A DNA stretch of 64,000 bases from an uncultured Gammaproteobacteria bacterium (GTDB lineage: Bacteria; Pseudomonadota; Gammaproteobacteria; GCA-001735895), in contig CAWIHJ010000074.1 in assembly GCA_963835795.1 (NCBI GenBank), positions 14,392 through 78,391 on the forward strand, written 5' to 3'. The position numbers were made by a program, and so were the translations under genes. The notes beneath the pieces were generated by a model. The model worked only from the letters and a program-made list of their open reading frames with translations. It was not told the DNA's origin and made no database searches. Of the stretch, positions 9,571 through 39,206 are shown piece by piece (position 1 is the first letter of the stretch; each line of letters starts with the position of its first letter).

Positions 9571-9603
9571 TCATTCCCCGGTCCGACGCATCGGGGAATG
9601 ACG
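9571..9603. repeat. GC-rich hairpin gtcattcccc-N13-ggggaatgac (REP-like; no U-tract)
   Basis: Perfect 10-bp inverted repeat read in sequence, between the regulator and the convergent amidase. Confidence 0.3.
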
Positions 9604-9646
9604 TAATAAGGAGGTGGGAATGACGGGAAAGGGGGTGCCGGCAGCG

Positions 9647-12525: not shown

Positions 12526-12583
12526 GCTGGCTCCTGTGGGTCATCGAATTGCCAGGCCCAGGGATTGCAGGTATTTTGTATGC

Positions 12584-24002: not shown

Positions 24003-24149
24003 TGCCCTGAGCGGACTCCCGAAGCATGAAAGTGGGAGGCAATCTTCGGCCAGCAGCGGACGCATGGCAACAGATAATATATTATCGGGCTAATTGCCAT
24101 TTACTTATGCTGTTAGGCTAATACGGCTCTTCGTAGAAAGGGGCAAAAT

Positions 24150-24863
24150 ATGGAAGACAAGAAAATTTGTGTCGATTGCCAGAGTGCAATTAATAAAAAT
24201 GCAAAACGTTGCATTAAGTGTGGCGCGTTTCTGGACTGGAGGCGTTACTCAAGTCAAGTAAGTACGCTCCTAGCCCTTATTCTAGCTGCAATAGCAACCT
24301 TTGCTTGGGCAGAGCCGATGCTGAAAAAATATATTCTTGGCTATGATGATGAGCTGTCAATCATGGCTGCCAACACTTATTTTAATGTTGTTTCTCATGC
24401 GGAAGCAGGAAGCTCATTGAAAGGTCTTCAAATTGCCATATCCAACACAGGAGATAGGTCCGCATTTGTTCAAGATATCGCTGTTTTCTTCGAGTTCTCA
24501 GTGGAAGACAATGAAAAATCAAAATCAAAAAGTGACGAACCGAATTCAAGTGGGTTTGTTTACTTGAATGAGTTACCTGAGATTTACAGAAATTCTTGGA
24601 TTATAAAGCCGGGAAATAGTGAATTATTTAAAGTATTCCTTACTAAGTCAATCGCACTTCCAGAGATGAAGAAAAGCCTAATTTACTATGGGCCAGAAAT
24701 AGGGTCAGGGAATTACAGCGCGGCTTGCAAAGCTTCCGTCGACTGGGTTAGCTTCGAGGGAGAAACAGGAAAGTTGGTAAAGGTGTTAGATAACAACAAT
24801 TGTAGTTGGATCTTAAAAATGGTGTTAATGCGGTTAATGGAATTTGAGAATGATAAAGCCTAA
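24150..24863 (+). CDS. hypothetical zinc-ribbon + single-TM protein with about 180-aa C-terminal domain
   Basis: CVDCQSAINKNAKRCIKCGA (C-x2-C-x11-C-x2-C) followed by a TM helix (VSTLLALILAAIATFAWA). About 38% GC versus about 60% genome. Confidence 0.5.
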   Translation: MEDKKICVDCQSAINKNAKRCIKCGAFLDWRRYSSQVSTLLALILAAIATFAWAEPMLKKYILGYDDELSIMAANTYFNVVSHAEAGSSLKGLQIAISNTGDRSAFVQDIAVFFEFSVEDNEKSKSKSDEPNSSGFVYLNELPEIYRNSWIIKPGNSELFKVFLTKSIALPEMKKSLIYYGPEIGSGNYSAACKASVDWVSFEGETGKLVKVLDNNNCSWILKMVLMRLMEFENDKA

Positions 24864-25213
24864 TAAACGCATGTAGTTGAGCAATGGCATGAGCGTCTCA
24901 GTTGGTGCGATTGCAGAGTTTTTCGGTGCTCAATTGAACAGCGGCTAACGGAAAATTCGATCTTTAGAATCACTTGAAAATTTCGGCTTCGTGCCCGTAG
25001 CTGCCCCTCAGTATCGTCATGCCAATCTTCGAGCCGATACTCCTGGCGAAAATGCCAGTGTCCACTGACATGAAAACGGGTGCTGAGAATCAACACGGCC
25101 ATTTATGCCGACTTTTGTAGTCTCGATCGATCGATACTGACCCTTTTAGTTTACAACTGAAACAGTTAGCAGATGTCCATGCGAGCCTGTATGACCCGAG
25201 CCAAAATCCTGGG

Positions 25214-25828
25214 TCAGATCACTTCGAAATGCGCATTGCGGGGCTGGTTGCCGCAGATCGAGGTGATGTCCTGTGGGCAGGCTGACAGGCAGATCACCAG
25301 GTCCATTTCCGCGCGCATGACGATGTAATCGCCCTTCTTGCTGACCGGCGGATGTGGTTTGATCACGCCATTGGCTTCGACCGGGGTGTTTTGCCAGAGA
25401 TTAAACGGTGCCGGTAATTCGATCGGTTTCAGGCCCAGCGCAACCATCGCCTCCCAGAAATTATCGGTGCAATTGCGGTGATACTCTTTGCATCCCAGCA
25501 ACTCGTAGCGGTAGCGATCACAGGCCGCGAGCAAGGTGTCGTGGGTGCCCGGGGCCGAATCCTGCATGATTTTCACTATGGGCCGGCGCCGGTTGGTAAT
25601 CATGACATCGCCCTTGCGCGGGCAGACGCGTTCGAGCGATACGCGGCAATGTTCCAGGGACATGTATTCACCGAGGTTGTCGGCATTCAGCGCCCAGCAA
25701 TCGACCACCTGCGTGCCGTGGGTATTGATCACCTTGATACGGCGGCCTTTTTTAACGAAGGCGGCCTTTGCGTGCCGTGCAGGAATGGAAACCCGCTGAT
25801 TGGAAACTGCGCTGTTTTGCTTTGCCAT
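25214..25828 (-). CDS. DUF1989-like (urea-carboxylase-associated family) protein
   Basis: 205-218 aa; weak recognition from memory only. Alternative start at 25870. Confidence 0.4.
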   Translation of the reverse strand: MAKQNSAVSNQRVSIPARHAKAAFVKKGRRIKVINTHGTQVVDCWALNADNLGEYMSLEHCRVSLERVCPRKGDVMITNRRRPIVKIMQDSAPGTHDTLLAACDRYRYELLGCKEYHRNCTDNFWEAMVALGLKPIELPAPFNLWQNTPVEANGVIKPHPPVSKKGDYIVMRAEMDLVICLSACPQDITSICGNQPRNAHFEVI

Positions 25829-26000
25829 GTCACTTGCCTGTCTATGCGGAAACCAGTCAGACTTCACCATGTTTTGCTATTGAAGTAAATGTCAGAACTT
25901 TCAGGCCAGGGATCAGGTCATAGGTGAAACGGGTCAAACAACGCTATCGGGTTTCAGGGATATTATTGACCGAGAGTTGTCGAGTAATCAGGATGTCGGC

Positions 26001-26410: not shown

Positions 26411-26953
26411 TCAGATTTTTTCGATCACCAGCATGATGCGACCGACCTCGAAACCCCACTTGGTCATGATCGACTCGTTCAGCAACACCCGCTCGGAGAC
26501 CAGGTACATGCGATCGTCGATGCGCAGATCGAGCGTGTCGCCGTCGTAAGGTATGCGCAGCACGTAATCCAGAAACAGGCTGTTACCGGCGACCTGCATC
26601 TTGCCGTCGCCGATCACGTCGCCGGCGGTCGCAACATAGTGGTTATCTCCCATCGGTCGCAATGTCCAAACGCGCGTCTGTAGCTCACCGTCGTCGAAAA
26701 CGAAACGCTCATCGAGAGTGCCGATACCATCCTGCCACGACGCATCGATGCTGGCGCTGAAGTAACGAATCACCTTGCCGCCGCGATCTTTGACGACGCC
26801 GTGCGCCACCAGTTGACCGTTAAAAAATTGCTCCGCCACCAGCCGCGGCTGATTATCGGCATAATCGTCTACCGTAACCGAGGTACAGGCACTGAGCAAA
26901 AATCCACAAACAGCGATCAATACTCGTTGAAGCGACAGTTTTTCGCGATTCAC
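26411..26953 (-). CDS. DUF3833-family lipoprotein
   Basis: GTG start with GGGAGG SD; lipobox LLSACTS. GTGA overlap with the upstream gene. Confidence 0.55.
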   Translation of the reverse strand: MNREKLSLQRVLIAVCGFLLSACTSVTVDDYADNQPRLVAEQFFNGQLVAHGVVKDRGGKVIRYFSASIDASWQDGIGTLDERFVFDDGELQTRVWTLRPMGDNHYVATAGDVIGDGKMQVAGNSLFLDYVLRIPYDGDTLDLRIDDRMYLVSERVLLNESIMTKWGFEVGRIMLVIEKI

Positions 26954-27765
26954 GACTGGCCTCCCGGCATCACCTGGACGTCGGAGCCATCGGTCACCTT
27001 CGGCTCGGATAGCCGACACGCCTGCGCTGGCATATCGTCATAGCGATAGCGGATATCGACCACCATGCCCTTGCCGTTTCTATCACCGATGTTGGACAGG
27101 CCACGAAACCGGGTCAGCTGACGTGACTCGGCATCGTAGCCGAGCTCGATGGGTTTCACCGCCAGGCGCAACAGCCAGCTGGCAAGATCGAGGCGAAAAC
27201 ATTGGTCGCTTTGCGTCGCGTAGCTGCAGGCCCGCGACTGAATCCGCAGCTCCACCAGACTGGTTCGGTCGGCGAGGGGAAACTGAAACTCGAGGCTTTC
27301 ACCAGCCAGCAGGCGATCCCATTGCTGGCGCACAAATTCGTCAAAACCGGCATCGATGACCACCGGCAAGTTCGCACTGGGCTCGGCCAACGCCGATTTG
27401 CTCACGACCCGCGTATCGCTGTCGATCACCGACATCCTCACCGAGCCCTGTTGCAGCGATACTTCAATCGACTCCTGCGAGTAGTAGTTGTGTTGCACGA
27501 AGGAAGGCGTGGTACTCCCGGAGCGGTAATCGACCCGCTTGTGCGCAATCAGGTTATCCTTCGCGTCCTGGTAGGTCACCTCGCGCTCGCTGCCATCGGT
27601 GCTCAGGCAGTGGGTCTCGCGATACATCAGTTCGTCGCTTTGCAGATCATAGGCCATGCCAATGGTCTGACTGGTCTTACCGGCGGCGCCCGACGGGTTC
27701 GCCAGGGCGAACAGAATCAGCCCGGCGAACAGGCGCACCCATGGATTTTCAAACAGCTTGTTCAT
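26950..27765 (-). CDS. periplasmic hypothetical protein (signal peptide) of the ChrR-regulon operon
   Basis: MNKLFENPWVRLFAGLILFALANPSGAAG signal peptide; overlaps both neighbours. Confidence 0.5.
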   Translation of the reverse strand: MNKLFENPWVRLFAGLILFALANPSGAAGKTSQTIGMAYDLQSDELMYRETHCLSTDGSEREVTYQDAKDNLIAHKRVDYRSGSTTPSFVQHNYYSQESIEVSLQQGSVRMSVIDSDTRVVSKSALAEPSANLPVVIDAGFDEFVRQQWDRLLAGESLEFQFPLADRTSLVELRIQSRACSYATQSDQCFRLDLASWLLRLAVKPIELGYDAESRQLTRFRGLSNIGDRNGKGMVVDIRYRYDDMPAQACRLSEPKVTDGSDVQVMPGGQS

Positions 27766-28273
27766 TGACGCTCCGTAACGGTTGCTTCATTTTTGCGGCA
27801 AACCAGATGCCCAGCGGAAACAGCAGCGCCCAGCCAACGCTCATGATGGCCAGCGATCCCAGCACCGGCACGCGCAACTCGGCGTCGCTAAGATTGCTGC
27901 CAAACCAGTAGCTGGCCGGGCCGAATACCGCGGCCAGCAGGGCCGCAAACAGGGGAAAGGCGCGCAACCACAGCAGGCTGTGCATGAAGGTGGTCGCGAA
28001 GATCACCCACAGGCAAACCAGCCACAGCGGGATACCCGCCAAATCTCCGTCCGCGTAGAGAATCACACCCGCTTGCGCCATCCCCACATCCCACAGGCAA
28101 CCGACCAGCGCGACTGTGCCGATCAGTTTCCACTCTCGCGCGTCGACGAGCACCAGCCATTGATGCAGCAACAGGGCGATGAGGGTATAGGCGCCGGCAT
28201 ACCAGTTACCACCGAGCACGCACACCAGCCAGCCCATCTGGAACAACCCCAGGTTGATCAATGTTTTTTTCAA
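27749..28273 (-). CDS. DUF2878-family membrane protein
   Basis: 174 aa, 5 TM helices; a typical member of the cfa/DUF1365 operon. Confidence 0.5.
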   Translation of the reverse strand: MKKTLINLGLFQMGWLVCVLGGNWYAGAYTLIALLLHQWLVLVDAREWKLIGTVALVGCLWDVGMAQAGVILYADGDLAGIPLWLVCLWVIFATTFMHSLLWLRAFPLFAALLAAVFGPASYWFGSNLSDAELRVPVLGSLAIMSVGWALLFPLGIWFAAKMKQPLRSVNEQAV

Positions 28274-28297
28274 AGGGTTTTTATCACAGGTTTATAA

Positions 28298-29558
28298 TCA
28301 GGCCAGCGCGCGTTGCCGCCATTGCGGCTTGGCCAACAGGATCTGCGCGGTGCCGATGATGCGCTCTTCAAAGCCGCCCTGGCAGTAACACAGGTAGTAA
28401 TGCCACATGCGCATGAAAAATTCATCGAAGCCGAGTGCCTGCACTTCGTCGCTGGCGCGCGAGAAAGCGTTCACGCCAGATGGCGAGAGTGCGCGCATAG
28501 TCTTCGCCGATTTCCTGCATGCCCACCATCACCATATCGGTGTTGCGTTTGACCGCGGTAAACAACACTTCGTGGCCCGGCAGCGAACCGCCCGGGAAAA
28601 TATAGCGCTGGATAAAGTCGACCGAACGGCGCGCGTATTCGTAGCGTTGATCGGGTATGGTAATGGTCTGCAACAGCATCAGGCCATCGTCCTTGAGCAG
28701 CGCCGAACAGCCGCTGAAATACTGGTCGTAGTATTGATGTCCGACCGCCTCGATCATTTCCACCGACACCAGCTTGTCGAAGCTGCCTTCGAGGTTGCGA
28801 TAATCTTCCAGCAACAGCGTCACGCGGTCTTCCAGGCCTGCGTCGCGCACCCTTTGGCTTGCGATCTCGTACTGTTCGCGAGAAATGGTGGTGGTAGTGA
28901 CCCGACAGCCGTAGTGGCGGGCGGCATAGATCGCGAGCCCGCCCCAGCCAGTGCCGATTTCCAGCAGGTGATCTTCCGCTTTCAGCTCGAGCTTGCGGCA
29001 AACCACTTCGAGCTTGTGCACCGCTGCCTGTTCCAGACTGTCTTCGGGATGCTCGAAAATGGCCGCCGAATACATCATTTCGGGGTCGAGGAACAAGGCG
29101 AAAAAATCGTTGCTGAGATCGTAGTGACGCGAAATATTTGCGCGCGCCTGCTTCTCGGTGTTGCGATTCAAAAAGTGGAACAGCTTGTCACCGGCGCGTT
29201 GCAACAGGGGCGTGCCGCCATCGATCTGGTTCAGAAAATCGATATTGATACACATCAGACGCACCAGTTCGAGCAGGTTCGGGGTGGTCCATTTGCCGAG
29301 CACGTAGGCTTCGGCGCCACCCATCGAGCCGCCGAAAGCGATGTCGCGATAAGCGCTGATGTCATTGATGACCATCTTCGCGCGCACCGGGTTTTCACCC
29401 AGCGGATTGCCAAACGCGTGCGTCTCCTCGCCATCTTCGATTACCAGGTAACCGCGTGGCAAGGCCTTCAGGCGCTTGAGCAACTGGCGCCTGGCCAGGT
29501 TGCCAAACAAACCGAGGCCGGTGGAAGTGTTTATTGCAGAAGTCGTTAAGCCATTCAT
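28298..29558 (-). pseudogene. cyclopropane-fatty-acyl-phospholipid synthase-family SAM methyltransferase, frameshifted
   Basis: ORF 29558..28422 holds SAM motif LLEIGTGWGGLA and ends abnormally. ORF 28498..28298 holds the conserved C-terminus ALGFDEFFMRMWHYYLCYCQGGFEER. One-base lesion near 28470. Confidence 0.75.
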
Positions 29559-30361
29559 ATCTTGGTCTTCAGTTGGTTTGTTGTTGGTTCGTCATGCTGT
29601 TCGCGCTCCAGGGCGACAGGATGGTCGTAAACAGGGTTACGCTTGAACCACAGTTTCAGCGCCTGCCAGTAAATTAAAAACGCCACCTTGCCGGTCATCC
29701 ACGGAAACCGCAGCAACACACTGGTCAGCGCGCCGGCAGTGAGTTCACGCCTTTTCAAGGCCATGGTGGCATCCATCTGTGATTCATTATCGCGTTCGGT
29801 TTCAAGGTTCAGCGCCAGCACCTTTTGCGGCTGGTTACTGCACCAGCGATAAGTCATATCCATCGGGTTAAACGGCGAAACATGCATTTGCTTTTCAAAC
29901 TTAATACGCTGGTAGCGCTGCTTCGGATCACAGGTCAGCACGTAACTCTGGCGTTCGCCCCAGGGCGTGTTGGTGACTTCGACGACAATGTAACGCAGGG
30001 CTTCCTGCCGATCGAAGCAGTAGTAGCAGGCGATCGGATTCATGTTGAAACCGAAATATCGCCAGTTCGCCAGCAGGCGCACACTGCCCTCGTGTCTTAC
30101 CCCTGTTTCTTCCTGAATACGTTCGCACACCGCCTGCTTCAACGGCACTGCCGGATCGCCATGAAAGTCGCTGCGCTGGAATCGAGCCGGGCGAAAAGCC
30201 TTGCGCGACCAGAACGGAGAGAGTGCCAGCACCTGGTCGAGCTCGTCGAGGTCCAGGTACATCATGAAAATCGGGTAGGTGAAACAATGCGCGCGCGGCA
30301 AAAACCGGCGGTGACGCAAATATCCCTGGTAGATGGCGCTATGCATGGGCAGGGATAGCAC
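29555..30361 (-). CDS. DUF1365-family protein (UfaO-like)
   Basis: 268 aa, MHSAIYQGYLRHRRFLP... It is the conserved partner of the FAD oxidoreductase and Cfa in ChrR regulons. Confidence 0.7.
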   Translation of the reverse strand: MLSLPMHSAIYQGYLRHRRFLPRAHCFTYPIFMMYLDLDELDQVLALSPFWSRKAFRPARFQRSDFHGDPAVPLKQAVCERIQEETGVRHEGSVRLLANWRYFGFNMNPIACYYCFDRQEALRYIVVEVTNTPWGERQSYVLTCDPKQRYQRIKFEKQMHVSPFNPMDMTYRWCSNQPQKVLALNLETERDNESQMDATMALKRRELTAGALTSVLLRFPWMTGKVAFLIYWQALKLWFKRNPVYDHPVALEREQHDEPTTNQLKTKI

Positions 30362-31631
30362 CCGGGTATTCGGTGCTCGCCGGGTTCAGCTTATTGATCG
30401 CCGCGGCAACCTGCTTGCCACTGACCACGCCGTCTTCGTGAAATCCATTGCCGAGATAGGCGCCCGCAAACCAGCTTCGATTGTATCCGTTGTAGCCCTG
30501 GATGTGTTTTGCCGCGGCAATCGCATCGAGCGAGAATACCGGGTGAGCGTAATTGAAGCGGTCGATGATTTTATCCTCGGCGATCGCTTCGCTGGCGTTC
30601 AGCGTAACGCAAAAAGTGGTATCGGACTCGATCCCCTGCAAGATGTTCATATTGTAATTCAGCACCGCTCGCTGCTGGTCGTGTTCGCGCAACCAGTAAT
30701 TCCAGCTCGACCAGGCGCGGTGGCTGCGCGGTAACAGGCTGGCGTCGGTATGCAGCACCACCTCGTTCGACTGGTAGGGAATTGCACCCAGCGCATCGCG
30801 TTCTGCCTGCGTCGAGTCGCCGATCAGCGCCAGCGCCTGATCGCTGTGACAGGCGAATACAACCTGATCAAACTGTGCCCGCTCGCCATTGTGCATTACG
30901 ATTTCGACTCCCGCCTGCAGGCGCAGTACCGAAGCGATCTGCACGTTGCAGTGAATCGCATCGCGAAACTTGCGTGTCAGCGGTTCAAGATACGCCCGCG
31001 AACCACCCTCGATGACTCGCCACTGCGGACGATTGTTGACGCTTAACAGCCCATGATTCCTGAAAAAACGGATTAAGAACAGCAGCGGAAAGTCGTTCAT
31101 TGCATCGATCGACGCCGACCAGATCGCCGATCCCATCGGCAGTAAATAGTGGCGGATAAAGTTTTCACCATAGCCGCTCCCGGCCAGGTATTCACCCAGC
31201 GTAGTTTCTGCAGACAGATGACCCCTGTCAAGATCGCGAACCGCCTCGCGGTTGAAGCGCAATATATCCTGCAGCATGCGGTGGAACGAGGGCCGTAGCA
31301 GGTTACGGCGTTGCGCGAAAAGCGTATTCATATTATTGCCGCCGTACTCCAGTCCAGTGTTATCACAACGCACGCTGAAACTCATCTCGGTCGGTTTGCT
31401 GGCAACGCCAAGCCGCTCCAGCAGTTCGATGAAATTGGGGTAGGTCCAGTCGTTATAAACAATGAACCCGGTGTCGATCGCATAGTTTCGTCCCTGCCAG
31501 TCGACGTCGACCGTCGCCGTGTGGCCGCCAACTCGCGCAGCGGATTCGTAAATCGTCAGCTGGTGGTCGTCGCTCAGATAGTAGGCGGCACTGAGGCCCG
31601 AAATTCCGGCGCCGATAATCGCAATTTTCAT
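30339..31631 (-). CDS. FAD-dependent oxidoreductase, amine-oxidase fold (UfaD-like desaturase homolog)
   Basis: MKIAIIGAGISGLSAAY dinucleotide-binding motif; 430 aa. Confidence 0.8.
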   Translation of the reverse strand: MKIAIIGAGISGLSAAYYLSDDHQLTIYESAARVGGHTATVDVDWQGRNYAIDTGFIVYNDWTYPNFIELLERLGVASKPTEMSFSVRCDNTGLEYGGNNMNTLFAQRRNLLRPSFHRMLQDILRFNREAVRDLDRGHLSAETTLGEYLAGSGYGENFIRHYLLPMGSAIWSASIDAMNDFPLLFLIRFFRNHGLLSVNNRPQWRVIEGGSRAYLEPLTRKFRDAIHCNVQIASVLRLQAGVEIVMHNGERAQFDQVVFACHSDQALALIGDSTQAERDALGAIPYQSNEVVLHTDASLLPRSHRAWSSWNYWLREHDQQRAVLNYNMNILQGIESDTTFCVTLNASEAIAEDKIIDRFNYAHPVFSLDAIAAAKHIQGYNGYNRSWFAGAYLGNGFHEDGVVSGKQVAAAINKLNPASTEYPGAIPAHA

Positions 31632-31634
31632 GCT

Positions 31635-32417
31635 TCAGCTTTCCGTTTTTTGCGTGCTGGTTGCCTTGTTATCCGCGGAAACGATTTTCTGCCACAGCGC
31701 AGGTGCGATTTTGGACAGCGCGAGCAGTAGCGACAGGCGCTTCGGGAAGCTGTAGGTTCGCGGGCGTGTTGCAAGCCGGGCGACAATGCGTCGCGCAGCT
31801 TCCTCGACATCCATCAGAAACGGCATGTCGAAATCATTCTTGCGCGTCAGCGGCGTATCGACGAAACCCGGGTTGACCACGCTGACATCGATTTGCTCGG
31901 GCGCGAGGTCAATCCGCAGGCTGTCACTGAAGTACTGTAACGCGGCCTTCGATGCACCGTAGGCCTCGGCGCGCGGAAACGGCGCCGCCGTTACCTGCGA
32001 TGCCACCACTACCAGTTGCGCCCGCTCATTGCTGCTGGCCCGCAAATAGGGCAGCACAAACTCGACGCAGTTGACACTGCCGAAGAAATTGACTTCCATG
32101 ACGCGTCTGACGGCCGCCCAGTCGGGGTCGGGGAAATCCAGGTATTCGCAGCTTCCAGCATTCAATATCGCCACATCGATGTGCGCCGATATCGCCGTCA
32201 TGCGTTCTCCGAGAGCTGCCATCGCTGCGGCATCGGTAATGTCGCAGGCCAGCGGCCGGATGTTCTCGCTGTGGGCCGCGAGATCGTCCAGCGCCTGCTG
32301 GTTGCGCGCGGTCGCGATCACCAGCGCGCCGCTGTTCGCCAGCTGCAGGGCCATGCTGTGACCCAGCCCACTACTGGCGCCAGTCACCCAGATTACTCGC
32401 TTTGCCGCGTTCGACAT
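31635..32417 (-). CDS. short-chain dehydrogenase/reductase (SDR)
   Basis: TGASSGLG Rossmann motif, YGASK catalytic motif. Confidence 0.8.
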   Translation of the reverse strand: MSNAAKRVIWVTGASSGLGHSMALQLANSGALVIATARNQQALDDLAAHSENIRPLACDITDAAAMAALGERMTAISAHIDVAILNAGSCEYLDFPDPDWAAVRRVMEVNFFGSVNCVEFVLPYLRASSNERAQLVVVASQVTAAPFPRAEAYGASKAALQYFSDSLRIDLAPEQIDVSVVNPGFVDTPLTRKNDFDMPFLMDVEEAARRIVARLATRPRTYSFPKRLSLLLALSKIAPALWQKIVSADNKATSTQKTES

Positions 32418-32419
32418 GA

Positions 32420-32848
32420 CTAACTCGCAAGCCGCATTTTGAGCCAGCGCGTGACGTTACCAAGCAGCGGCAATTGGTCATAAAGCATGGCGCCCATATC
32501 GTAGAAATCCTCGTGGTACTCGATCTTGTCGCCCAGTTTGAGGTGGCTCACGCCGCGCACACTGATGAGCCGGTTACCCAGGCGGGGGTGCTTGAAATGC
32601 ATCATCCATTTCACATAAGCCGCATCTTCGCCAACCTGTTCGTCGAGATACTCGAAACGGCAGTCGCTGAGGTCTGCGCACATCGAGGTGAAATAGTCCT
32701 CGAGTTCGACTAGCCCGCGGATTTCATGCACGGGATCCTTGAACACGACCTGGTCGGCGTAAAGCTCTCCCAGCCGGCTGAGATCGGCTTCGTGCAGTAG
32801 TTTGAAGTAGTTTTTGAAGTTCTCTATTAATAAGGTACTGTTGTTCAT
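32420..32848 (-). CDS. NTF2-like/SnoaL-like protein
   Basis: 142 aa. It is the first gene of the minus-strand operon downstream of the sigmaE-type promoter. Confidence 0.5.
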   Translation of the reverse strand: MNNSTLLIENFKNYFKLLHEADLSRLGELYADQVVFKDPVHEIRGLVELEDYFTSMCADLSDCRFEYLDEQVGEDAAYVKWMMHFKHPRLGNRLISVRGVSHLKLGDKIEYHEDFYDMGAMLYDQLPLLGNVTRWLKMRLAS

Positions 32849-32886: not shown

Positions 32887-32915
32887 TTATACGCGGCAAG
32901 CGGCTTTTTGGATCA
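32887..32915 (-). promoter_or_regulatory. ECF sigmaE(ChrR)-type promoter TGATCC-N16-CGTATAA for the minus-strand 8-gene operon
   Basis: Plus strand reads TTATACG-N16-GGATCA, which is the reverse complement of TGATCC-N16-CGTATAA. It sits about 35-65 bp upstream of the SnoaL-like start. Confidence 0.45.
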
Positions 32916-32920
32916 GGCAG

Positions 32921-32948
32921 TGATCCACGTCTGCAATCGGCCCGTATA
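32921..32948 (+). promoter_or_regulatory. ECF sigmaE(ChrR)-type autoregulatory promoter TGATCC-N16-CGTATA for rpoE-chrR
   Basis: TGATCC (32921-26), 16-nt spacer, CGTATA (32943-48), about 30 nt before the rpoE ATG. Matches the RpoE/ChrR-group consensus. Confidence 0.5.
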
Positions 32949-32979: not shown

Positions 32980-33567
32980 ATGGCCCTTATGACCAACAAA
33001 CGATCAGGCAATGATCAGCTGACCCTACTCAGCGAATGCCTCGCGCGCGTTGCGGAGCAACGCGACAAGGCGGCCTTCGCGCAACTGTTCGATCACTATG
33101 CACCATTGATTCGAGCTTTCAGTCTGGCCCGAGACCCCGGTGCCGACCTCGTCGCCGATGACCTGGTGCAGGAAGTCATGACGCGGGTCTGGCTCAAGGC
33201 CGACAAATATAACGTACGCCTGGCCAACCTGAACACCTGGATTTTCACCCTGGCGCGCAACTGTCGGATCGACTACCTGCGCCGCAACAGTCGCTTCGTT
33301 AGTGCGATTGATCCGACGGACATCTTTAATGACATCGAGGACGAAGGTCCCGGGCCCTTCCAGCAGGTACAACAAAATCGGGCTGGAGAAAGCGTCAGGG
33401 CAGGATTAAAACAACTACCGCGTGAACAGGCGGAAATATTAACCAAGGTTTATTTGGAGGGAAAAAGTCATCAACAAGCCAGCGACGAGCTGCAGCTGCC
33501 ACTCGGTACCGTGAAATCGCGCGTACGCCTGGCGCTGAAAAAGCTCGAAGCAGTGATTGCGAGGTAA
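32980..33567 (+). CDS. rpoE: ECF RNA polymerase sigma factor, RpoE(ChrR-partnered) group
   Basis: Sigma-70 region 2 (DLVQEVMTRVW) and region 4 (ILTKVYLEGKSHQQASDELQLPLGTVKSR). Confidence 0.85.
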   Translation: MALMTNKRSGNDQLTLLSECLARVAEQRDKAAFAQLFDHYAPLIRAFSLARDPGADLVADDLVQEVMTRVWLKADKYNVRLANLNTWIFTLARNCRIDYLRRNSRFVSAIDPTDIFNDIEDEGPGPFQQVQQNRAGESVRAGLKQLPREQAEILTKVYLEGKSHQQASDELQLPLGTVKSRVRLALKKLEAVIAR

Positions 33568-33569
33568 TC

Positions 33570-34232
33570 ATGGAAACAGCAAACAAACACCCACAAGATG
33601 AATTACTGGCAGCTTACTCGGCCGGTAGCCTGCCGCTCAGTCAGGCGCTGTGTATTTCGACTCATATCGAACACTGCGACGACTGTGCACGCAATCTGCA
33701 GCGGCTGAACCGCGTCGGCAGTGAATTGATGCAGCAATTGCATCCGGCGCCCGCTTCCGCTGCGCTCAAAGACAAATTGTTCGCACAACTTGATTCGCTC
33801 AGTGAAGATGACATCGAAACAAGCAGCGTCGATCCGGCCTCTCCAGTGCCACGCTGCCTGCAGCAATTCGTGCGCGATGGTTATGACGATTTGCCGTGGC
33901 GGCGCGTATCGCTCGCCATTCACAGCGTTGAACTGTGCCGCGACAGCAGTGGCGCCAGGGTCGAGTTGCTGAAGATCCGCCCCGGCGGTTCGGCGAATAC
34001 GCACACCCACCTCGGTGATGAATACACCGTTGTGCTCGAAGGCAGCTTTTCCGATGACGCTGGCGTCTACAGCAAAGGCGATTTCATGCTGCGTGATCAA
34101 AACGACAAACACCGACCGGTGGCGACCCAGGATCGTGAATGCATCTGCCTCGCGGTGACCGAAGGACCGATTCAGTTTACCGGTGTATTCAACCGTTTGC
34201 TGAATCCGTTGCTACGGCGCGATTTTGGGTGA
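33570..34232 (+). CDS. chrR: ChrR-family anti-sigma factor (zinc-binding, cupin C-terminal domain)
   Basis: HIEHCDDCARN zinc-binding motif (H-x3-C-x2-C). Directly follows rpoE with a 2-nt gap. Confidence 0.8.
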   Translation: METANKHPQDELLAAYSAGSLPLSQALCISTHIEHCDDCARNLQRLNRVGSELMQQLHPAPASAALKDKLFAQLDSLSEDDIETSSVDPASPVPRCLQQFVRDGYDDLPWRRVSLAIHSVELCRDSSGARVELLKIRPGGSANTHTHLGDEYTVVLEGSFSDDAGVYSKGDFMLRDQNDKHRPVATQDRECICLAVTEGPIQFTGVFNRLLNPLLRRDFG

Positions 34233-34241
34233 CGCGGTATT

Positions 34242-35211
34242 TTGATGAATCCGAATGTCGCGTCCGACACGGGCAAAATTCTGGTCGGCATCAGCAGCTG
34301 CCTGGTCGGCGAGAAAGTCCGCTTCGACGGTGGCCACAAGCAAAACCGCTACATCCTCGACACCCTGGGAAAATTCTTTCGCTTTCGGCCATTCTGTCCG
34401 GAGATGGCCATCGGCCTCGGCGTTCCGCGCGAAACCATTCGCCTGGTGTCGATCGATGGTCGTACCGAGGCCGTCGGCAACAAGAACAGCCATTTGAACT
34501 TTACCCAGGCATTAATCCAGAGCGCCGAGGACCAGGCTGACTGGCATGCGCAGATTTTCGGCTACATCGTCAAGAAAGATTCGCCGAGCTGTGGCATGGA
34601 GCGGGTCCGGGTATACCGCGGCGAACTGCCCAGCCGCGATGGCGTGGGCCTGTATACCGAAACCCTGATGCGCAACTTCCCGGCCCTGCCGGTAGAAGAA
34701 GAGGGCCGTCTCGGTGACCCCGTACTGCGCGAGAGTTTCGTCAAGCGCGTGATCATCTACAAGCGCTGGCACGACTTGCTCGAGGCCGGTCTCGACTGGC
34801 CCGGGCTAACCGACTTTCACGCTCGCCACAAGCTGATTCTCTACTCGCACAATCAGGAGCTCGGACGCAAGCTCGGGCGCGAACTCGCGGTCGCCCAGCA
34901 GCCAGCCGATTGAGACCTATGGCGCGCAATACCTGGCGCAATTGATGGCCATTCTGAAAATCAGCGCGAAACGCTCGAACCACGTCAACGTACTGGAACA
35001 CATTCGCGGTTACCTGAAGCAGGATCTCGACAAGGAAGACAAGCAGGAATTGACCGACAGCATCGAAAATTACCGGCTCGGCCTGTTACCACTGATCGTA
35101 CCGATCACCCTGCTGCGCCATCATTTTCGGCGTTACCCCGACCCCTACATCGAGCAGTCCTATTACCTGCAGCCGCATCCCGATGAACTGATGCTGCTGA
35201 ATTCGTTGTAG
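34242..35211 (+). pseudogene. ybgA: DUF523 + DUF1722 (YbgA-like) protein, frameshifted
   Basis: ORF 34242..34913 holds DUF523 and the start of DUF1722. ORF 34942..35211 holds the DUF1722 C-terminus (NVLEHIRGYLKQDL...PLIVPITLLRHH). Frame change near 34915. ybgA-phr linkage is the same as in E. coli. Confidence 0.6.
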
Positions 35212-35222
35212 AGGGCCAGTCA

Positions 35223-36651
35223 ATGAATCAACCCCTCGCCATCGCCTGGTTTCGCCAGGATCTGCGCATTCACGATAATCCGGCCTTGCGCGCCGCCGCC
35301 GAACACGATTCGGTGTTACCGATTTATATTCTGGACGACGACAACGCCGGGCACTGGGCCATGGGCGGCGCCAGCCGCGCCTGGTTGCATCATTCACTGC
35401 AGGCATTGAATCGCAGCCTGGATGGCCGCTTGCAGCTGTTCCAGGGTGATGCGCGCGCGATTATCGAGCGCCTGGTCGAAGACCACGACGTCGATGCGGT
35501 TTACTGGAATCGTTGTTACGAACCCTGGCGGGTACAGCGCGACCAGCTGATCAAGCAGGACCTGATGGAAAGTGGCGTCGACGCGCGCAGTTACAATGCG
35601 TCGCTGCTGTGGGAACCCTGGGAGGTGGCCAAGAAGGACGGTACGCCCTACCGTGTGTTTACCCCTTTTTATCAAAATGGCTGCCGCCAGGCGCAGCCCC
35701 CGCGCGCGGCGCTGCCGGCCCCGCAAAACCTGCGCTGTTTGCGACGCCGACGTCGACTTCGCGCAATCGCTACAAGCGCTGAAATTGCTACCCGAGGACC
35801 TGGATTGGCATCAGGGCCTGGTCTCAGAGTGGTCAATCGGTGAAGACGCCGCCAGCGCACAACTGCAGCAATTCTGCGAGCAAGACCTCGATGACTACAA
35901 GCGCGCGCGTGACTTCCCCGCCGTCGACGCTACTTCGCGACTGTCACCCCACCTGCACTTCGGCGAAATTTCGCCGCATCAACTGTGGCATCGCCTCGAG
36001 CACGATGGATCGCAGGCAGCGGGTGAAAATGCGGCCCACTTTCTGCGCGAAATTGCCTGGCGCGAGTTTTCCTATCACCTGCTGTATCAATTTCCGGGCC
36101 TGCCCCGCGACAATTTCAACGCCAAATTCGATCGCTTCGAATGGCGCGACGATGCTGCGGCGCTCGAGCGCTGGCAGCGCGGTCAAACCGGTTTTCCGAT
36201 CGTCGATGCCGGCATGCGCGAACTCTGGCAAACCGGTTACATGCACAACCGCGTGCGCATGATCGTTGCTTCTTTCCTGATCAAAAACCTGCTGATCCAC
36301 TGGCGCGCGGGCGCTGACTGGTTCTGGGATTGCCTGTTCGACGCCGACCTCGCCAACAACAGCGCGAGCTGGCAATGGTGTGCCGGGTCCGGGGCTGACG
36401 CCTCACCCTATTTCCGCATCTTCAACCCGGTATTGCAGAGCCAGAAATTCGATCCTGAAGGCGAGTACCTGCTGCGTTACTGTCCGGAGCTTGGCGGCTT
36501 GCCCGCGCGCCTGCGTCACCAGCCCTGGCAGGCCAGCGAGGCCCAATTACAGGAAGCCGGTATTCGTCTCGGGGAAGACTACCCGCTACCGATGGTGGAT
36601 TTGAAAGTCACGCGAGAACGCGCGTTACAACGATTCAAAGAACTCGCCTGA
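35223..36651 (+). pseudogene. phr: deoxyribodipyrimidine photolyase (CPD photolyase), frameshifted
   Basis: N-domain ORF 35223..35843 (IAWFRQDLRIHDNPAL) and FAD domain ORF 35572..36651 (WREFSYHLLYQFP, TGFPIVDAGMRELWQTGYMHNRVRMIVASFL) are in different frames. Lesion near 35745. Confidence 0.8.
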
Positions 36652-36674
36652 GCGAGCATTGGTCTGATCACCGG

Positions 36675-39206
36675 TCAGGCGGCTTCGATTTCGCGAATCT
36701 GCTGCTGGCAACGCTGCATCGCCAGCGCCATTTGTTTACCGCTTTGAAAGCGCTGGTCCGCCTCTTTCTGTAACGCCTTGTTGATCAGGCTGCTGACGCA
36801 TTTAGGCAGTTCAGCGCGAATCTCACGAATCTCGGGATGCTTTTCGTTGGCGATGTTGTACATCAGGTTGGCGATCGACTCGCCATTGAACGGCAACACA
36901 CCACAGAGCATCTGGTAAAAGGTGACGCCCAGTGAAAACAGGTCGGCGCGGCCGTCGACTTTTTTGCCTGCCAGTTGTTCGGGGGACATGTAGTACGGGC
37001 TGCCAAGGACGGTGCCGGTCTTGGTCTTGCTGGCGTCGGTCAGGCAGGCGACGCCGAAGTCGGTAATCTTGGCGATGTTTTTATCACGTCGTAAATGATG
37101 TTGGCCGGTTTGATATCGCGATGCACCACGTGTTGCTCGTGCGCATAGTCGAGTGCCATCGCGACACTGGAAATGACGCTGAACACCTGGCTTACCGGTA
37201 GCAAGGTCTTGGTGGTGCAGTAGGCGGTCAAATCCTTGCCCTTGAGATAATCCATCGCGATATAGGCGAGATCCTGTTCGTCACCGACGTCGTAAACGGT
37301 GACAATATTGGGGTGATTCAGCCGGCCTGCCGCTTCGGCTTCGCGGAAAAAGCGGGTGCGCACTTCGTCGCGCAAGTCGTCTTCGATTTCGTCAGCCAGC
37401 AACATGGTCTTGATCGCTACGGTGCGTCCGATCTTGTCGTCGTGACCGAGATACACCATGCCCATGGCGCCCCGGCCGATTTCACTGTCGATCTGGTAGC
37501 GTCCGAGCTTCGGCTTCTGCACGCCGTCCTGATCGCTGATCAAATTTTGCCCCGGGCCGCTGCTGTCGCGCCCGGCGAGCACCACGGTATTGGCGGCTTG
37601 CGTGTTTTGCGCGACGCGTTCGCTGACGTCGTTGTATTTGGCATCGTGCTGGAGAATGAACTTGAACACCGCACCCGCCTTGTTGAACTGGCGCTTGCGC
37701 TCGTAGTCCAGCCCGAGGTTGTACAGCTGGCCGAGCAAGGATTCATCGACCCGGCAATGGCGATATTTTTCGAAAGCCTGGTCGAGATTGCCCTGCGCCT
37801 GCAGTGCCATACCCAGTTGCCGGTTGGCGACAGACAACTCGTCTCGCGTACCCAACAGATGCGCCTTCACCGCCTGCCTGGTGCCGACCACCAGGTGACC
37901 CACCAACAGCATGACCACCGCGGTCATCATCGGCAACCACAGCGACTGCGTACTCATCAACAGGAAGTGCGCATTGAAAAGCATCAGCGTCAGGAACAGG
38001 CTGAGGAAAAAGGCCGTGTTGGTACGAAAACGGCCCAGTACCAGCATCAGGTAGAGCCCGAGTGCCAGGATCAAGCCCGCGCTGCGCCCAGCCCGCCCAT
38101 TCGGGAAGGCGGTATTGCTCGTTGTTGAGCAGGCTCGACACGGTGTGCGCCGAGGCGACTGTGCTGGAAATCGATTCGCCGGAAGGTGTCGGCAACAGCG
38201 ACGCCAGGCGTGGCGAGGTCAATCCGACGATGACGATTTTTTCCTTGAAGCGGTGCATGTCGACGCTGCCGTCGAGGACATCGATCAGCGAAAATACGCT
38301 AAACGCGGGTTTGCCATTGTCACCCGGGTAGTATCGCGGGTAGATCTTCATTTCGACATCTGCACCAAGATCCTTGCCACCCAGCGCCGGACTGATCTGA
38401 CTCAGGGACTCAACGTGTTCCATCGACATGCCCTTGCTGCGGGTAGTGACCATCAATGCGAATGACGGCAACACTTCGCTGCCGTACTTCACCACCAGTG
38501 GTTCGCCGTTAAAGACCGAATCTGTGACCATCACGCCAATCGCTCCGACGCGCCGGGTGAAGCTTTCCAGCGGTGGATAAATATCGCCAGCGCGGGTGAC
38601 CCCGGGTGTAGGCCAGCCAAATCCTCGACTGGCGTTGTTGACATTGACTTTATGCAAGGCGAAACGCTGCATGTATGCCGGTAGCGCAGGGGTCAAACCG
38701 GTCGCCGATTGATCGCTTTCGAGATAAGTCATGCCAAGCACGATGCGACCCGCCGATTTGAAACTAGCAGCAAGTTTGTCGTCACCGCGCAGCATCGATT
38801 CGGTCGCGCGGATGGCGCGGTTGACATTGCGGCTGAGTTTTTTCTCCTGTTTCAACACATTGCGCAGATGTGCCAATGACTGGATGCTTGACTGGTTCTG
38901 GGGATGATCGAGTGGCAGGTGGTAGCCGATGACTCGCGGACCTGCACGGCCCAGATGCAGCGTGGTTTCGGCCAGCACCTCGCGCGACCAGGGCCAGGCG
39001 CCGAGCGCCTCGATCGATTTGTCGTCGATCGCGACCACAACAATGTCTTCATGCGCTTCCTTGTTTGCGGAAAACTGCACGCCGAGGTTATAGGCCTGGT
39101 GATCAAGCGCCACAAACCATTCCGCTTCTGCGGCAAGCAGAAACAGCAGCGTGATCATCAGCCCGATGAACCAGTCGCGTTTGATCAGGGATTTCTTCAA
39201 TAACAT
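36675..39206 (-). pseudogene. CHASE2 sensor - TM - TPR - Ser/Thr protein kinase, two frameshifts
   Basis: ORF 39206..37743 is the CHASE2 domain. ORF 38074..37040 is TM helices + TPR + kinase N-lobe (GRGAMGMVYLG, VAIK, HRDIKPANI). ORF 36989..36675 is the kinase C-lobe (SPEQLAGKKVDGRADLFSLGV). Lesions near 38095 and 37043; the second is A5 where A6 would restore VIKNIAKITDFG. Confidence 0.7.

What the first reader, a model, noticed from the sequence alone, without database searches (positions are those of the whole stretch)
26411..32848. Eight-gene, tightly overlapped operon homologous to the furan-fatty-acid / singlet-oxygen regulon, with its methyltransferase frameshifted
The operon reads SnoaL-like, SDR, FAD amine-oxidase-fold oxidoreductase (UfaD-like), DUF1365 (UfaO-like), Cfa-family methyltransferase, DUF2878, periplasmic protein, DUF3833 lipoprotein.

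The genes are packed with 4-23-nt overlaps, including ATGA and GTGA coupling junctions. The predicted sigmaE-type promoter lies upstream.

In Rhodobacter, the DUF1365 and FAD-oxidoreductase homologs convert methylated unsaturated fatty acids into furan fatty acids under ChrR/RpoE control. Here the Cfa-like SAM methyltransferase, the putative first step, carries a one-base frameshift near 28470. The desaturase-like and oxygenase-like genes are intact. The pathway may therefore be broken at its first step. The roles of the DUF2878, periplasmic and DUF3833 members remain uncharacterised anywhere.
Basis: partly seen in the sequence, partly recalled or inferred. Interest (0 to 1): 0.6.

Follow-up and report, generated by a model that had tools for sequence, protein, structure and literature searches.

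The report
Known furan-fatty-acid stress operon; frameshift doubtful
This is an ordinary copy of the well-known sigmaE/ChrR-controlled operon that makes furan fatty acids against light and oxygen damage, and the "broken" methyltransferase is one of at least ten one-base frameshifts in this 64-kb stretch, so it is more likely an assembly error than a lost pathway.

Summary
Eight co-directional genes lie on the minus strand, 32848 to 26411: SnoaL-like, SDR, FAD amine-oxidase-fold (UfaD-like), DUF1365 (UfaO-like), Cfa/CMAS methyltransferase (UfaM-like), DUF2878, a secreted 271-aa protein and a DUF3833 lipoprotein. An exact TGATCC-N16-CGTA promoter precedes them, facing a second one for a divergent rpoE-chrR pair. 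The methyltransferase carries one extra base, at 28451 rather than 28470.

The locus is the already described core sigmaE-ChrR (ECF11) regulon and furan-fatty-acid cluster. Its gene order is ufaD-ufaO-ufaM, as in Rhodopseudomonas palustris and Halomonas. The full eight-gene order recurs in related uncultured gammaproteobacteria and in Marinomonas.

"Pathway broken at its first step" is weakly supported. A 95%-identical environmental copy is intact and differs by exactly that one base. Deleting the base restores the family-typical 419 aa. The window holds at least nine more ±1 frameshifts, in the photolyase, DUF523-DUF1722, a CHASE2-kinase (two), an OYE/FadH-like gene (three), a Rieske oxygenase and a beta-lactamase-like gene. 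There are no in-frame stops and no excess divergence, and the shifts sit in two patches. I rate an assembly artefact at about 0.65 and a real recent mutation at about 0.3. Reads are needed to decide. Interest is low.

The parts
32890..32915 (-). SigmaE(ChrR-type) promoter of the eight-gene operon: TGATCC-N16-CGTAtaat, 42 nt upstream of the SnoaL ATG
   Evidence: 4 exact matches in the window against 0.08 expected. The motif is as published for RpoE/ChrR-type sigma factors (PMC5507510). It is conserved upstream of the first operon gene in relatives that have rpoE-chrR next door.
32420..32848 (-). Gene 1: SnoaL-like / NTF2-fold protein (142 aa)
   Evidence: Pfam SnoaL_2, E 7e-15. Full-length single-frame match to relatives at 77-79% identity.
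31635..32417 (-). Gene 2: short-chain dehydrogenase/reductase (260 aa), counterpart of RSP1087
   Evidence: Pfam adh_short, E 8e-43. An SDR is listed in the core regulon.
30339..31631 (-). Gene 3: FAD amine-oxidase / phytoene-desaturase-fold oxidoreductase (430 aa), UfaD-like
   Evidence: Pfam Amino_oxidase and NAD_binding_8. UfaD = RSP1091 is described as this fold. It sits next to DUF1365-Cfa in 65 of 81 loci.
29555..30346 (-). Gene 4: DUF1365 protein (263 aa from the ATG; 268 aa from the GTG at 30361), UfaO-like
   Evidence: Pfam DUF1365, 263 bits. UfaO = RSP1090 is a DUF1365 protein.
29905..29930 (-). Second exact TGATCC-N16-CGTA, inside the DUF1365 gene, 372 nt upstream of the cfa start. 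Possible internal sigmaE promoter for cfa and the downstream genes.
   Evidence: The same position carries an exact motif in L002, L004 and five Marinomonas loci, but it is degenerate in L003, L005, L006, L007 and L020.
28298..29558 (-). Gene 5: Cfa/CMAS-family SAM methyltransferase, UfaM-like. It reads as 378 aa (28422-29558) plus a shifted 50-aa tail (28298-28450). Removing base 28451 gives 419 aa.
   Evidence: Pfam CMAS profile 3-238, then 238-273 in the next frame. Nearly all of the 120 best homologues are 416-423 aa. Alignments.
28451..28451 (-). The frameshift: one extra C on the coding strand (CGCCAG[C]GACGAAG), not in a homopolymer
   Evidence: DNA alignment with L001 (93% nt, 95% aa identical, intact) and with L002-L004.
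27749..28273 (-). Gene 6: DUF2878 integral-membrane protein (170-174 aa)
   Evidence: Pfam DUF2878, 122 bits. Adjacent to cfa in 57 of 81 loci.
26950..27765 (-). Gene 7: secreted 271-aa protein with no Pfam family. The predicted fold is a LolA/RseB/DUF1849-like open beta-barrel.
   Evidence: No Pfam hit. 407 homologues, all unnamed. AlphaFold2 model with pLDDT 81.6. Foldseek hits to 6ntr, RseB, LolA, VioE and EPDR1, with TM about 0.45 at best. Present in 33 of 81 loci.
26411..26953 (-). Gene 8: DUF3833 lipoprotein (180 aa, GTG start in a GTGA overlap, lipobox LLSAC). Probable counterpart of RSP1088.
   Evidence: Pfam DUF3833, 202 bits. The start is supported by the gene call on Logan contig L082 and by the junction sequence. 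RSP1088 is reported as matching a lipoprotein.
32921..32946 (+). Divergent sigmaE-type promoter of rpoE-chrR (TGATCC-N16-CGTAtaat), 34 nt before the rpoE ATG
   Evidence: A minus-strand partner motif is seen in relatives.
32980..34232 (+). rpoE-like ECF sigma factor (32980-33567) and ChrR-family zinc anti-sigma factor (33570-34232)
   Evidence: Sigma70_r2 and r4_2. TIGR02451 anti_sig_ChrR, 186.5 bits against a cut-off of 124.5. An H-x3-C-x2-C motif is visible in the translation.
34245..36651 (+). Downstream in the same transcription direction: DUF523-DUF1722 fusion gene (34245-35211, frameshift near 34903) and DNA photolyase (35223-36651, frameshift near 35745)
   Evidence: Pfam halves in different frames. 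Single intact ORFs in L002, L003, L004 and L006.
36675..39206 (-). CHASE2-Ser/Thr kinase gene with two frameshifts (GG to GGG near 38076; A6 to A5 near 37088). Context for the sequence-quality argument.
   Evidence: Intact ORFs of 843-844 aa in L003 and L004.

Best explanation
**What the locus is.** It is the core target operon of an ECF11-type sigmaE/ChrR switch.

**How it is switched on (inferred from the Rhodobacter model).** Singlet oxygen or organic peroxides trigger loss of the zinc anti-sigma factor ChrR. Freed sigmaE then transcribes from TGATCC-N16-CGTA promoters in both directions:
- rpoE-chrR-(DUF523/DUF1722)-photolyase on the plus strand;
- the eight-gene operon on the minus strand.

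**What the operon makes (inferred from homologues).**
- The Cfa-like enzyme (UfaM-like) methylates cis-vaccenoyl chains of phospholipids to 11-methyl-12-trans-18:1.
- The FAD enzyme (UfaD-like) desaturates this product to the conjugated diene.
- The DUF1365 enzyme (UfaO-like) inserts O2 to close the furan ring. The resulting furan fatty acids scavenge radicals and singlet oxygen in the membrane.
- The roles of the SnoaL-like protein, the SDR, the DUF2878 membrane protein, the secreted LolA/RseB-like barrel and the DUF3833 lipoprotein are not known. They are conserved accessory envelope or lipid-handling components.

**The frameshift.** The one-base insertion in the methyltransferase is most likely an uncorrected indel in a metagenome-assembled contig, so the organism probably has an intact pathway.

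**Shown here:** gene families, gene order, promoters, the exact position of the indel, and the excess of frameshifts in the window. **Inferred:** the enzymology (from R. sphaeroides, R. palustris and Halomonas) and the artefact status of the indel.
For: **Identity of the locus.**
- Family hits.
- Exact promoter motifs, 4 in the window against 0.08 expected. They match the published RpoE/ChrR-type motif.
[quoted passage not shown] The three genes are also consecutive in Halomonas, whose ufaM makes 11-methyl-octadec-12-enoate in E. coli.
- Synteny: FADox-DUF1365-Cfa occurs in 65-80 of 81 related loci. The whole eight-gene order occurs in L003, L004 and Marinomonas.
- Scores lie below the curated cut-offs of all three cyclopropane-synthase equivalog models (255.7 against 600; 245.4 against 400; 226.2 against 650). 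This fits a separate subfamily.

**Artefact status of the indel.**
- The contig is a 99-kb metagenomic record (P0001). Its closest genomes are uncultured-gammaproteobacterium MAGs.
- A 95%-identical gene (P0121 / L001) is intact and differs at the site by exactly one base.
- The repaired length of 419 aa equals that of nearly all homologues.
- At least nine further ±1 frameshifts occur at about 6664, 7065, 7615, 8200, 12855, 34903, 35745, 37088 and 38076. The five that could be checked against relatives lie in genes that are single ORFs in L002, L003, L004 and L006. Of the ten, five are insertions and five are deletions, and several sit in short base runs.
- No in-frame stop codons were seen. 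The identity of broken genes to relatives (62-81%) is the same as for intact neighbours.
- All ten shifts lie in two patches (5.7-13 kb and 28.4-38.1 kb). About 47 kb, including recBCD and polA, has none. Patchy polishing would produce this pattern.
Against: **Against the artefact reading.**
- No read-level evidence could be obtained. Two independent Logan contigs from run ERR12040029 match the window at 99.9% with no indels. One ends 82 nt and the other 249 nt short of a frameshift site.
- The cfa indel is not in a homopolymer.
- The broken genes are all dispensable accessory genes, while the housekeeping genes are intact. Genuine pseudogenisation would also produce this pattern.
- An IS5-like transposase lies nearby.

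**Against the functional assignment.** The assignment as UfaM, UfaD and UfaO rests on family membership and synteny. I made no direct sequence comparison with the characterised proteins, which I did not have.
Confidence: 0.65

Rival explanations
1. The frameshift is a genuine, recent inactivating mutation of the UfaM-like gene in this population. The organism keeps UfaD and UfaO but cannot make their substrate.
For: - The frameshift is unambiguous in the deposited sequence and is not in a homopolymer.
- The truncated product loses the conserved C-terminal element of the CMAS domain. This corresponds to E. coli Cfa residues about 331-372 in the 6BQC alignment, so the product would probably be inactive.
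- Two short-read-like contigs of the same population agree with the window without indels wherever they overlap it. The contig is therefore not uniformly error-ridden.
Against: - It is one of at least ten frameshifts in 64 kb.
- The 3' tail still reads as conserved coding sequence, with mostly synonymous differences from the 95% relative.
- Every other homologue seen is in a single frame.
Confidence: 0.2
2. The frameshifts are real and reflect relaxed selection: either decay of the light and photo-oxidative-stress module (ufaM, photolyase, DUF523-DUF1722, neighbouring sensor kinase) or genome-wide pseudogenisation in a lineage that became dark-living or host-restricted.
For: - Four of the broken genes cluster around rpoE-chrR, and two of them (cfa, phr) are core regulon members.
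- Only accessory genes are hit, while polA, recBCD, engB and dsbA are intact.
- An IS5-like transposase and a low-GC island lie nearby.
Against: - Unrelated genes 20 kb away (Rieske oxygenase, OYE/FadH-like with three shifts, beta-lactamase-like) are hit in the same way.
- The multiply shifted genes carry no in-frame stops and show no extra divergence.
- The regulators, both promoters and seven of the eight operon genes are intact.
- The hits cluster by position, not by function.
Confidence: 0.12
3. The shift is bypassed biologically, either by a programmed +1 ribosomal frameshift or by a functional split enzyme.
For: Only that the two frames overlap for about 100 nt and that the site contains tandem CGA codons.
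Against: - There is no conservation. The 95% relative and all other homologues encode the junction in one frame.
- No slippery or stimulatory element is evident.
- The same kind of shift occurs in nine other places in the window.
Confidence: 0.02

Closest known systems
Rhodobacter sphaeroides sigmaE-ChrR core regulon: rpoE-chrR, RSP1091-1087 (ufaD, ufaO, RSP1089, RSP1088, RSP1087) and RSP2143-2144 (phrB, ufaM)
   Same: - A divergent rpoE-chrR pair sits next to an operon that starts the furan-fatty-acid genes.
- It has the same families: FAD oxidoreductase, DUF1365, SDR, lipoprotein, Cfa-like methylase and photolyase.
- It has the same type of promoter.
   Different: - Here all core targets sit at one locus. 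ufaM follows ufaO, and the photolyase follows chrR.
- Extra genes are present: SnoaL-like, DUF2878 and the secreted 271-aa protein.
- No counterpart of the 402-aa RSP1089 was identified.
- The organism is an uncultured gammaproteobacterium.
Rhodopseudomonas palustris RPA2571-RPA2570-RPA2569 (ufaD-ufaO-ufaM)
   Same: The order of the three enzymes is identical. [quoted passage not shown]
   Different: No FufM-like second methylase was seen in the window. Different accessory genes flank the trio.
Pseudomonas syringae DC3000 PSPTO_1121(phrB)-PSPTO_1114 locus, controlled by the RpoE/ChrR-like PSPTO_1043/1042
   Same: A gammaproteobacterial cluster with SDR, amine oxidase, DUF1365-type hypothetical protein and cfa in the same order. 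It is driven by a (T/a)GATCC-N16-CGTA promoter and induced by singlet oxygen and tBOOH.
   Different: In P. syringae the sigma/anti-sigma pair is at a separate locus and phrB heads the operon. Here the pair is divergent and adjacent. The Pseudomonas loci fetched here lack the exact motif and an adjacent rpoE-chrR.
Halomonas sp. YLGW01 ufaD-ufaO-ufaM
   Same: Consecutive genes in a marine gammaproteobacterium. Its ufaM yields 11-methyl-octadec-12-enoate in E. coli and is distinct from its true cfa.
Marinomonas spp. and uncultured-gammaproteobacterium MAG loci (L003, L004, L009-L012, L016, L020)
   Same: The same eight genes occur in the same order, with divergent rpoE-chrR and the same promoter motifs. 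L003 and L004 also share the DUF523-DUF1722, photolyase and CHASE2-kinase neighbours.
   Different: All of these genes are uninterrupted there. Identity to the window is only 30-81%, depending on the gene.

Membership tests
SigmaE-ChrR (ECF11) regulon | Adjacent, co-transcribed ECF sigma factor and ChrR-family zinc anti-sigma factor | tested here: met
   Sigma70_r2 and r4_2 in 32980-33567. TIGR02451, 186.5 bits against a cut-off of 124.5, in 33570-34232. The genes are 2 nt apart. An H-x3-C-x2-C motif is present in the translation.
SigmaE-ChrR (ECF11) regulon | TGATCC-N16-CGTA-type promoter upstream of rpoE (autoregulation) and of the target operon | tested here: met
   Exact matches at 32921-32946(+) and 32890-32915(-). 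The window holds 4 against 0.08 expected. The motif is as published in PMC5507510 and is conserved in relatives.
SigmaE-ChrR (ECF11) regulon | Presence of the conserved core targets (SDR, lipoprotein, DUF1365 protein, FAD oxidoreductase, Cfa-like methylase, photolyase) | tested here: met
   All six families are found at the locus, against the list. Orthology to the R. sphaeroides proteins is inferred from family and synteny, not from direct comparison.
SigmaE-ChrR (ECF11) regulon | Induction by singlet oxygen or organic peroxide through ChrR turnover | not testable with these tools
   Needs reporter or transcript measurements.
UfaM/UfaD/UfaO furan-fatty-acid pathway | UfaD: FAD/NAD-binding, phytoene-desaturase-like oxidoreductase | tested here: met
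   Amino_oxidase and NAD_binding_8. Weak matches to HpnE and phytoene-desaturase models. Description of UfaD.
UfaM/UfaD/UfaO furan-fatty-acid pathway | UfaO: DUF1365 protein encoded next to ufaD | tested here: met
   DUF1365, 263 bits, profile positions 1-233 of 235. It overlaps the FAD gene by 8 nt.
UfaM/UfaD/UfaO furan-fatty-acid pathway | UfaM: intact CMAS-family SAM methyltransferase that methylates rather than cyclopropanates | tested here: inconclusive
   CMAS family and the position after ufaO are met. Scores are below all Cfa equivalog cut-offs. The frame is interrupted in the record. No UfaM-specific model or reference sequence was available.
UfaM/UfaD/UfaO furan-fatty-acid pathway | Production of 11Me-12t-18:1 and 9M5-FuFA | not testable with these tools
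   Needs FAME GC-MS.
Genuine pseudogene (inactivated ufaM) | Reading frame disrupted in the sequence | tested here: met
   One extra base at 28451.
Genuine pseudogene (inactivated ufaM) | Disruption reproduced in independent reads or assemblies | tested here: inconclusive
   Logan contigs L082 and L083, from the same population, stop short of the sites. Look-ups of the fragment ORFs and a JGI pattern scan found nothing.
Genuine pseudogene (inactivated ufaM) | Signs of relaxed constraint (in-frame stops, excess divergence) and a background of otherwise clean sequence | tested here: not met
   There are no stops, and the 3' tail is conserved. At least ten frameshifts occur in 64 kb, in two patches.
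Programmed ribosomal frameshift | Shift site conserved among homologues | tested here: not met
   All homologues are in a single frame, including the 95%-identical one.

The most novel reading that the evidence does not exclude
The frameshifts are real. This uncultured gammaproteobacterium would then be caught in the act of dismantling its light and singlet-oxygen defence (ufaM, photolyase, the photolyase-linked DUF523-DUF1722 gene and a neighbouring sensor kinase). Meanwhile it retains the sigmaE-ChrR switch, both promoters and the downstream UfaD and UfaO enzymes. That would be a natural 'first-step knockout' of furan-fatty-acid synthesis. Separately, the regulon here may include a conserved internal promoter inside ufaO and an unannotated small RNA of about 240 nt in the polA-engB spacer.
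Probability: 0.2. Interest if true: 0.4.

Novelty: new member of a known kind. Interest (0 to 1): 0.15.

Why it matters
**The operon.** It is a textbook-conserved stress module, and finding another copy adds little. The practical lesson is about data quality. A single frameshift in a metagenome-assembled contig should not be read as pathway loss until the local indel rate is checked, and here that rate is about one frameshift per 6 kb.

**What remains of modest value.**
- The compact "all core targets at one locus" arrangement, with three still-uncharacterised envelope proteins: DUF2878, a LolA/RseB-like secreted barrel and a DUF3833 lipoprotein. They co-travel with ufaM, ufaD and ufaO.
- Two extra exact sigmaE-type promoters, one inside ufaO and one in front of a terminator-bounded transcript between polA and engB. 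Both could be tested in a cultivable relative such as Marinomonas.

Tried and rejected
**Finding the source record or an independent copy that spans the frameshift.**
- Exact-protein look-ups failed for the DUF1365, FAD, truncated Cfa and DUF2878 proteins, the 206-aa photolyase fragment, the HTH-cupin regulator and the 88-aa DUF1722 fragment.
- Two look-ups succeeded and gave short Logan contigs from run ERR12040029 (L082, L083). These end before the frameshift sites.

**Third homologue search.** I used the C-terminal 108 aa of the repaired Cfa, hoping for near-identical fragments that cross the junction. The best hit was 86% identical.

**JGI metagenome scan.** A pattern that allowed zero or one base at the frameshift site found nothing.

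**Genome scan.** The GTDB-representative scan did not contain the source genome. The best match was 75% identical.

**Programmed frameshifting or a split enzyme.** Rejected, because every relative is in a single frame.

**A second cfa-like gene in the window that might compensate.** tblastn of the relatives' proteins placed Cfa-like matches only at this locus.

**Rfam.** No family reached its threshold anywhere in the window. Only sub-threshold hits, driven by the terminator, appeared in the polA-engB spacer.

**Other dead ends.**
- PDB sequence searches for the DUF3833 and DUF1365 proteins gave nothing meaningful.
- Dufour et al. 2008 could not be read. I took the promoter consensus and the core-regulon list from later papers that cite it.

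Full report
**1. Is the observation there?**

Yes. Eight ORFs on the minus strand fill 32848 to 26411.
- SnoaL_2 (32420-32848)
- adh_short (31635-32417)
- Amino_oxidase and NAD_binding_8 (30339-31631)
- DUF1365, 263 bits (29555-30346 or 30361)
- CMAS, 265 bits (28422-29558)
- DUF2878 (27749-28273)
- a 271-aa protein with no family (26950-27765)
- DUF3833, 202 bits (26411-26953)

Read in coding direction, the junctions are as follows:
- SnoaL/SDR: 2-nt spacer.
- SDR/FAD: 3-nt spacer.
- FAD/DUF1365: 8-nt overlap (23 nt with the alternative GTG start).
- DUF1365/cfa: ATGA overlap.
- cfa/DUF2878: a spacer of at least 24 nt.
- DUF2878/p271: 17-nt overlap.
- p271/DUF3833: GTGA overlap.

The DUF3833 start is therefore 26953, which agrees with an independent gene call on contig L082. 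The other seven genes align end to end, in a single frame, with their counterparts in the closest relatives.

**2. Regulation**

Divergently, on the plus strand, lie an ECF sigma factor (32980-33567) and a ChrR-family anti-sigma factor (33570-34232). The latter scores 186.5 bits on TIGR02451 against a cut-off of 124.5.

The 131-nt spacer contains two exact copies of TGATCC-N16-CGTA(taat). One faces the operon (32915-32890) and one faces rpoE (32921-32946). This is the motif reported by ChIP-seq for the RpoE/ChrR-like sigma factor of P. syringae. The authors say it closely resembles the Rhodobacter and Caulobacter motif (PMC5507510).

The window holds four exact matches, where 0.08 are expected from shuffles. 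Among 81 related loci, those with rpoE-chrR next door carry the same pair of motifs upstream of the first operon gene and of rpoE.

DUF523-DUF1722 and a photolyase follow chrR at gaps of 12 and 11 nt. They probably belong to the rpoE transcript.

**3. What it is**

The literature makes this a known system. In R. sphaeroides:
- UfaM (RSP2144, Cfa-like) methylates vaccenate chains to 11Me-12t-18:1.
- UfaD (RSP1091, FAD enzyme) desaturates that product.
- UfaO (RSP1090, DUF1365) inserts O2 to give the furan fatty acid 9M5-FuFA.
- Deleting RSP1087, RSP1088 or RSP1089 leaves the fatty-acid profile unchanged (PMC7380195).

rpoE-chrR, RSP1091-1087 and RSP2143-2144 (photolyase and cfaS) form the conserved "core sigmaE-ChrR regulon" (PMC3546557, PMC6852236, PMC5507510).

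In R. palustris the three enzymes are encoded consecutively as ufaD-ufaO-ufaM, the same order as here. The three genes are also consecutive in Halomonas, where ufaM expressed in E. coli yields 11-methyl-octadec-12-enoate (PMC12089945).

The window's methyltransferase scores below the curated cut-offs of all three cyclopropane-synthase equivalog models. This fits a separate, UfaM-like subfamily. I could not compare it directly with a characterised UfaM.

Synteny in 81 loci fetched with the repaired protein:
- DUF1365 lies next to Cfa in 75 loci.
- The FAD enzyme is present in 65.
- DUF2878 is present in 57.
- SnoaL and SDR are present in 41-43.
- rpoE-chrR are present in 33-34.
- The 271-aa protein is present in 33.
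- DUF3833 is present in at least 10.

The complete eight-gene order recurs in the closest MAGs (L003, L004) and in several Marinomonas species.

**4. The frameshift**

The CMAS profile runs through positions 3-238 in one frame and 238-273 in the next. The truncated 378-aa ORF is itself on record as P0001, from a 99,199-bp NCBI/ENA contig. The 120 best homologues are almost all 416-423 aa, and most are 419.

A cluster-mate, P0121 (95% identical, ENA contig L001), is intact. It reads ...WRERFLARQDEVQALGF.... At the DNA level the window has CGCCAG[C]GACGAAG where L001 has CGCCAGGACGAGG. This is one extra C at window position 28451, not in a homopolymer. Removing it gives a 419-aa protein.

The lost tail aligns with E. 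coli Cfa residues about 331-372 (6BQC), a conserved C-terminal element. A truncated product would therefore probably be inactive; that is an inference.

**5. Why I doubt it is biological**

I searched the window with the translated ORFs of the related loci. This showed that neighbouring genes are also split between frames, although each is a single ORF in L002, L003, L004 and L006:
- DUF523-DUF1722 near 34903
- the photolyase near 35745
- a CHASE2-Ser/Thr kinase near 38076 and near 37088

Pfam confirms the split domains. Nucleotide alignments show single-base events:
- an inserted G in CCCA[G]CAGCC
- GG to GGG
- A6 to A5

A codon-usage map of the whole window, Pfam and inspection of the translations add:
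- a Rieske oxygenase alpha subunit, near 6664
- an OYE/FadH-like gene with three shifts, near 7065, 7615 and 8200
- a beta-lactamase-like gene, near 12855, probably G4 to G3

That makes at least ten frameshifts in 64 kb, five net insertions and five net deletions. I saw no in-frame stop codon in any affected gene. The broken genes are no more diverged from relatives (62-81% identity) than the intact ones.

All ten shifts lie in two patches, 5.7-13 kb and 28.4-38.1 kb. About 47 kb has none, including recC, recB, recD, polA and several accessory genes.

Many independent, very recent, purely ±1 events, clustered by position rather than by function, fit uncorrected indels in a patchily polished metagenomic assembly. 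They fit natural decay less well.

Two counter-points remain. Only dispensable genes are hit. And two short contigs assembled independently from run ERR12040029 match the window at 99.9% with no indels over 2.9 kb. Neither reaches a frameshift site, so they decide nothing. I estimate artefact at about 0.65, genuine mutation or decay at about 0.3, and programmed shift or split enzyme at about 0.02.

**6. The uncharacterised members**

- The 271-aa protein has a signal peptide and 407 unnamed homologues. An AlphaFold2 model (pLDDT 81.6) most resembles the DUF1849 barrel 6NTR, RseB, LolA, VioE and EPDR1. TM-scores are modest, about 0.45 at best. This suggests a LolA-like open barrel that binds a hydrophobic ligand in the periplasm, but the lead is weak.
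- DUF3833 carries a lipobox (LLSAC). It probably corresponds to the lipoprotein RSP1088.
- DUF2878 is a small, very hydrophobic membrane protein.

**7. Comparison with what is known, and verdict**

The locus is another member of a described system. It differs only in packaging: all core targets sit at one divergent locus, with three extra envelope genes. Relatives share that arrangement.

The "pathway broken" reading is not secure. Interest is low unless reads prove the indels real.

Noticed in passing
window 5678-13758 and 34245-39206: At least nine further ±1 frameshifts besides the one in cfa. They lie in a Rieske oxygenase (~6664), an OYE/FadH-like gene (~7065, ~7615, ~8200), a beta-lactamase-like gene (~12855), DUF523-DUF1722 (~34903), the photolyase (~35745) and a CHASE2-Ser/Thr kinase (~38076, ~37088). 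None was seen in 13-28 kb or 39-64 kb.
   Followed up: yes
window 29905-29930 (-): An exact sigmaE-type motif, TGATCC-N16-CGTA, inside the DUF1365 (ufaO-like) coding sequence, 372 nt upstream of the cfa start. The same position is exact in L002, L004 and five Marinomonas loci despite variable intervening codons. It is degenerate in L003, L005, L006, L007 and L020. It may be an internal promoter for cfa and the three downstream genes.
   Followed up: partly
window 58808-59083 (-): A fourth exact sigmaE-type motif (59083-59058) lies in the 770-nt polA-engB spacer. About 215 nt downstream is a strong intrinsic terminator (58841-58816; 11-bp stem plus a T-run). This is a candidate sigmaE-dependent small RNA of about 240 nt. 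No Rfam family reached its threshold (best: anti-hemB, 30.8 against 49.5 bits). From memory, the polA-engB spacer hosts Spot 42 / ErsA in other gammaproteobacteria.
   Followed up: partly
window 59055-59130 (-): The 16-mer TGGCCCATGGATAGCG occurs twice about 55 nt apart, just upstream of and overlapping the motif in the polA-engB spacer.
   Followed up: no
window 26950-27765 (-): The secreted 271-aa operon member has no Pfam family. It models confidently (pLDDT 81.6) as an open beta-barrel whose nearest solved folds are DUF1849 (6NTR), RseB, LolA, VioE and EPDR1, which are lipid or hydrophobic-ligand binders.
   Followed up: partly
window 32980-36651 (+): rpoE, chrR, DUF523-DUF1722 and the photolyase are separated by only 2, 12 and 11 nt. 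They look like one autoregulated transcript, so the photolyase sits behind the sigma factor's own promoter.
   Followed up: partly
window 21400-25900: A low-GC island (44-48% against about 58% elsewhere) carries an IS5-like transposase (22374-23495; DUF772 plus a partial DDE_Tnp_1) and a 237-aa ORF with no family. The GC skew of the plus strand changes sign at about 26 kb, right at the end of the operon. This could be a rearrangement or insertion boundary, or a replication landmark.
   Followed up: no
L082 and L083 (Logan contigs, run ERR12040029): Independent short contigs from a public run match window 26718-28369 and 33413-34654 at 99.9%, with no indels. The same population is therefore present in that run, whose reads could settle the frameshift question.
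   Followed up: partly
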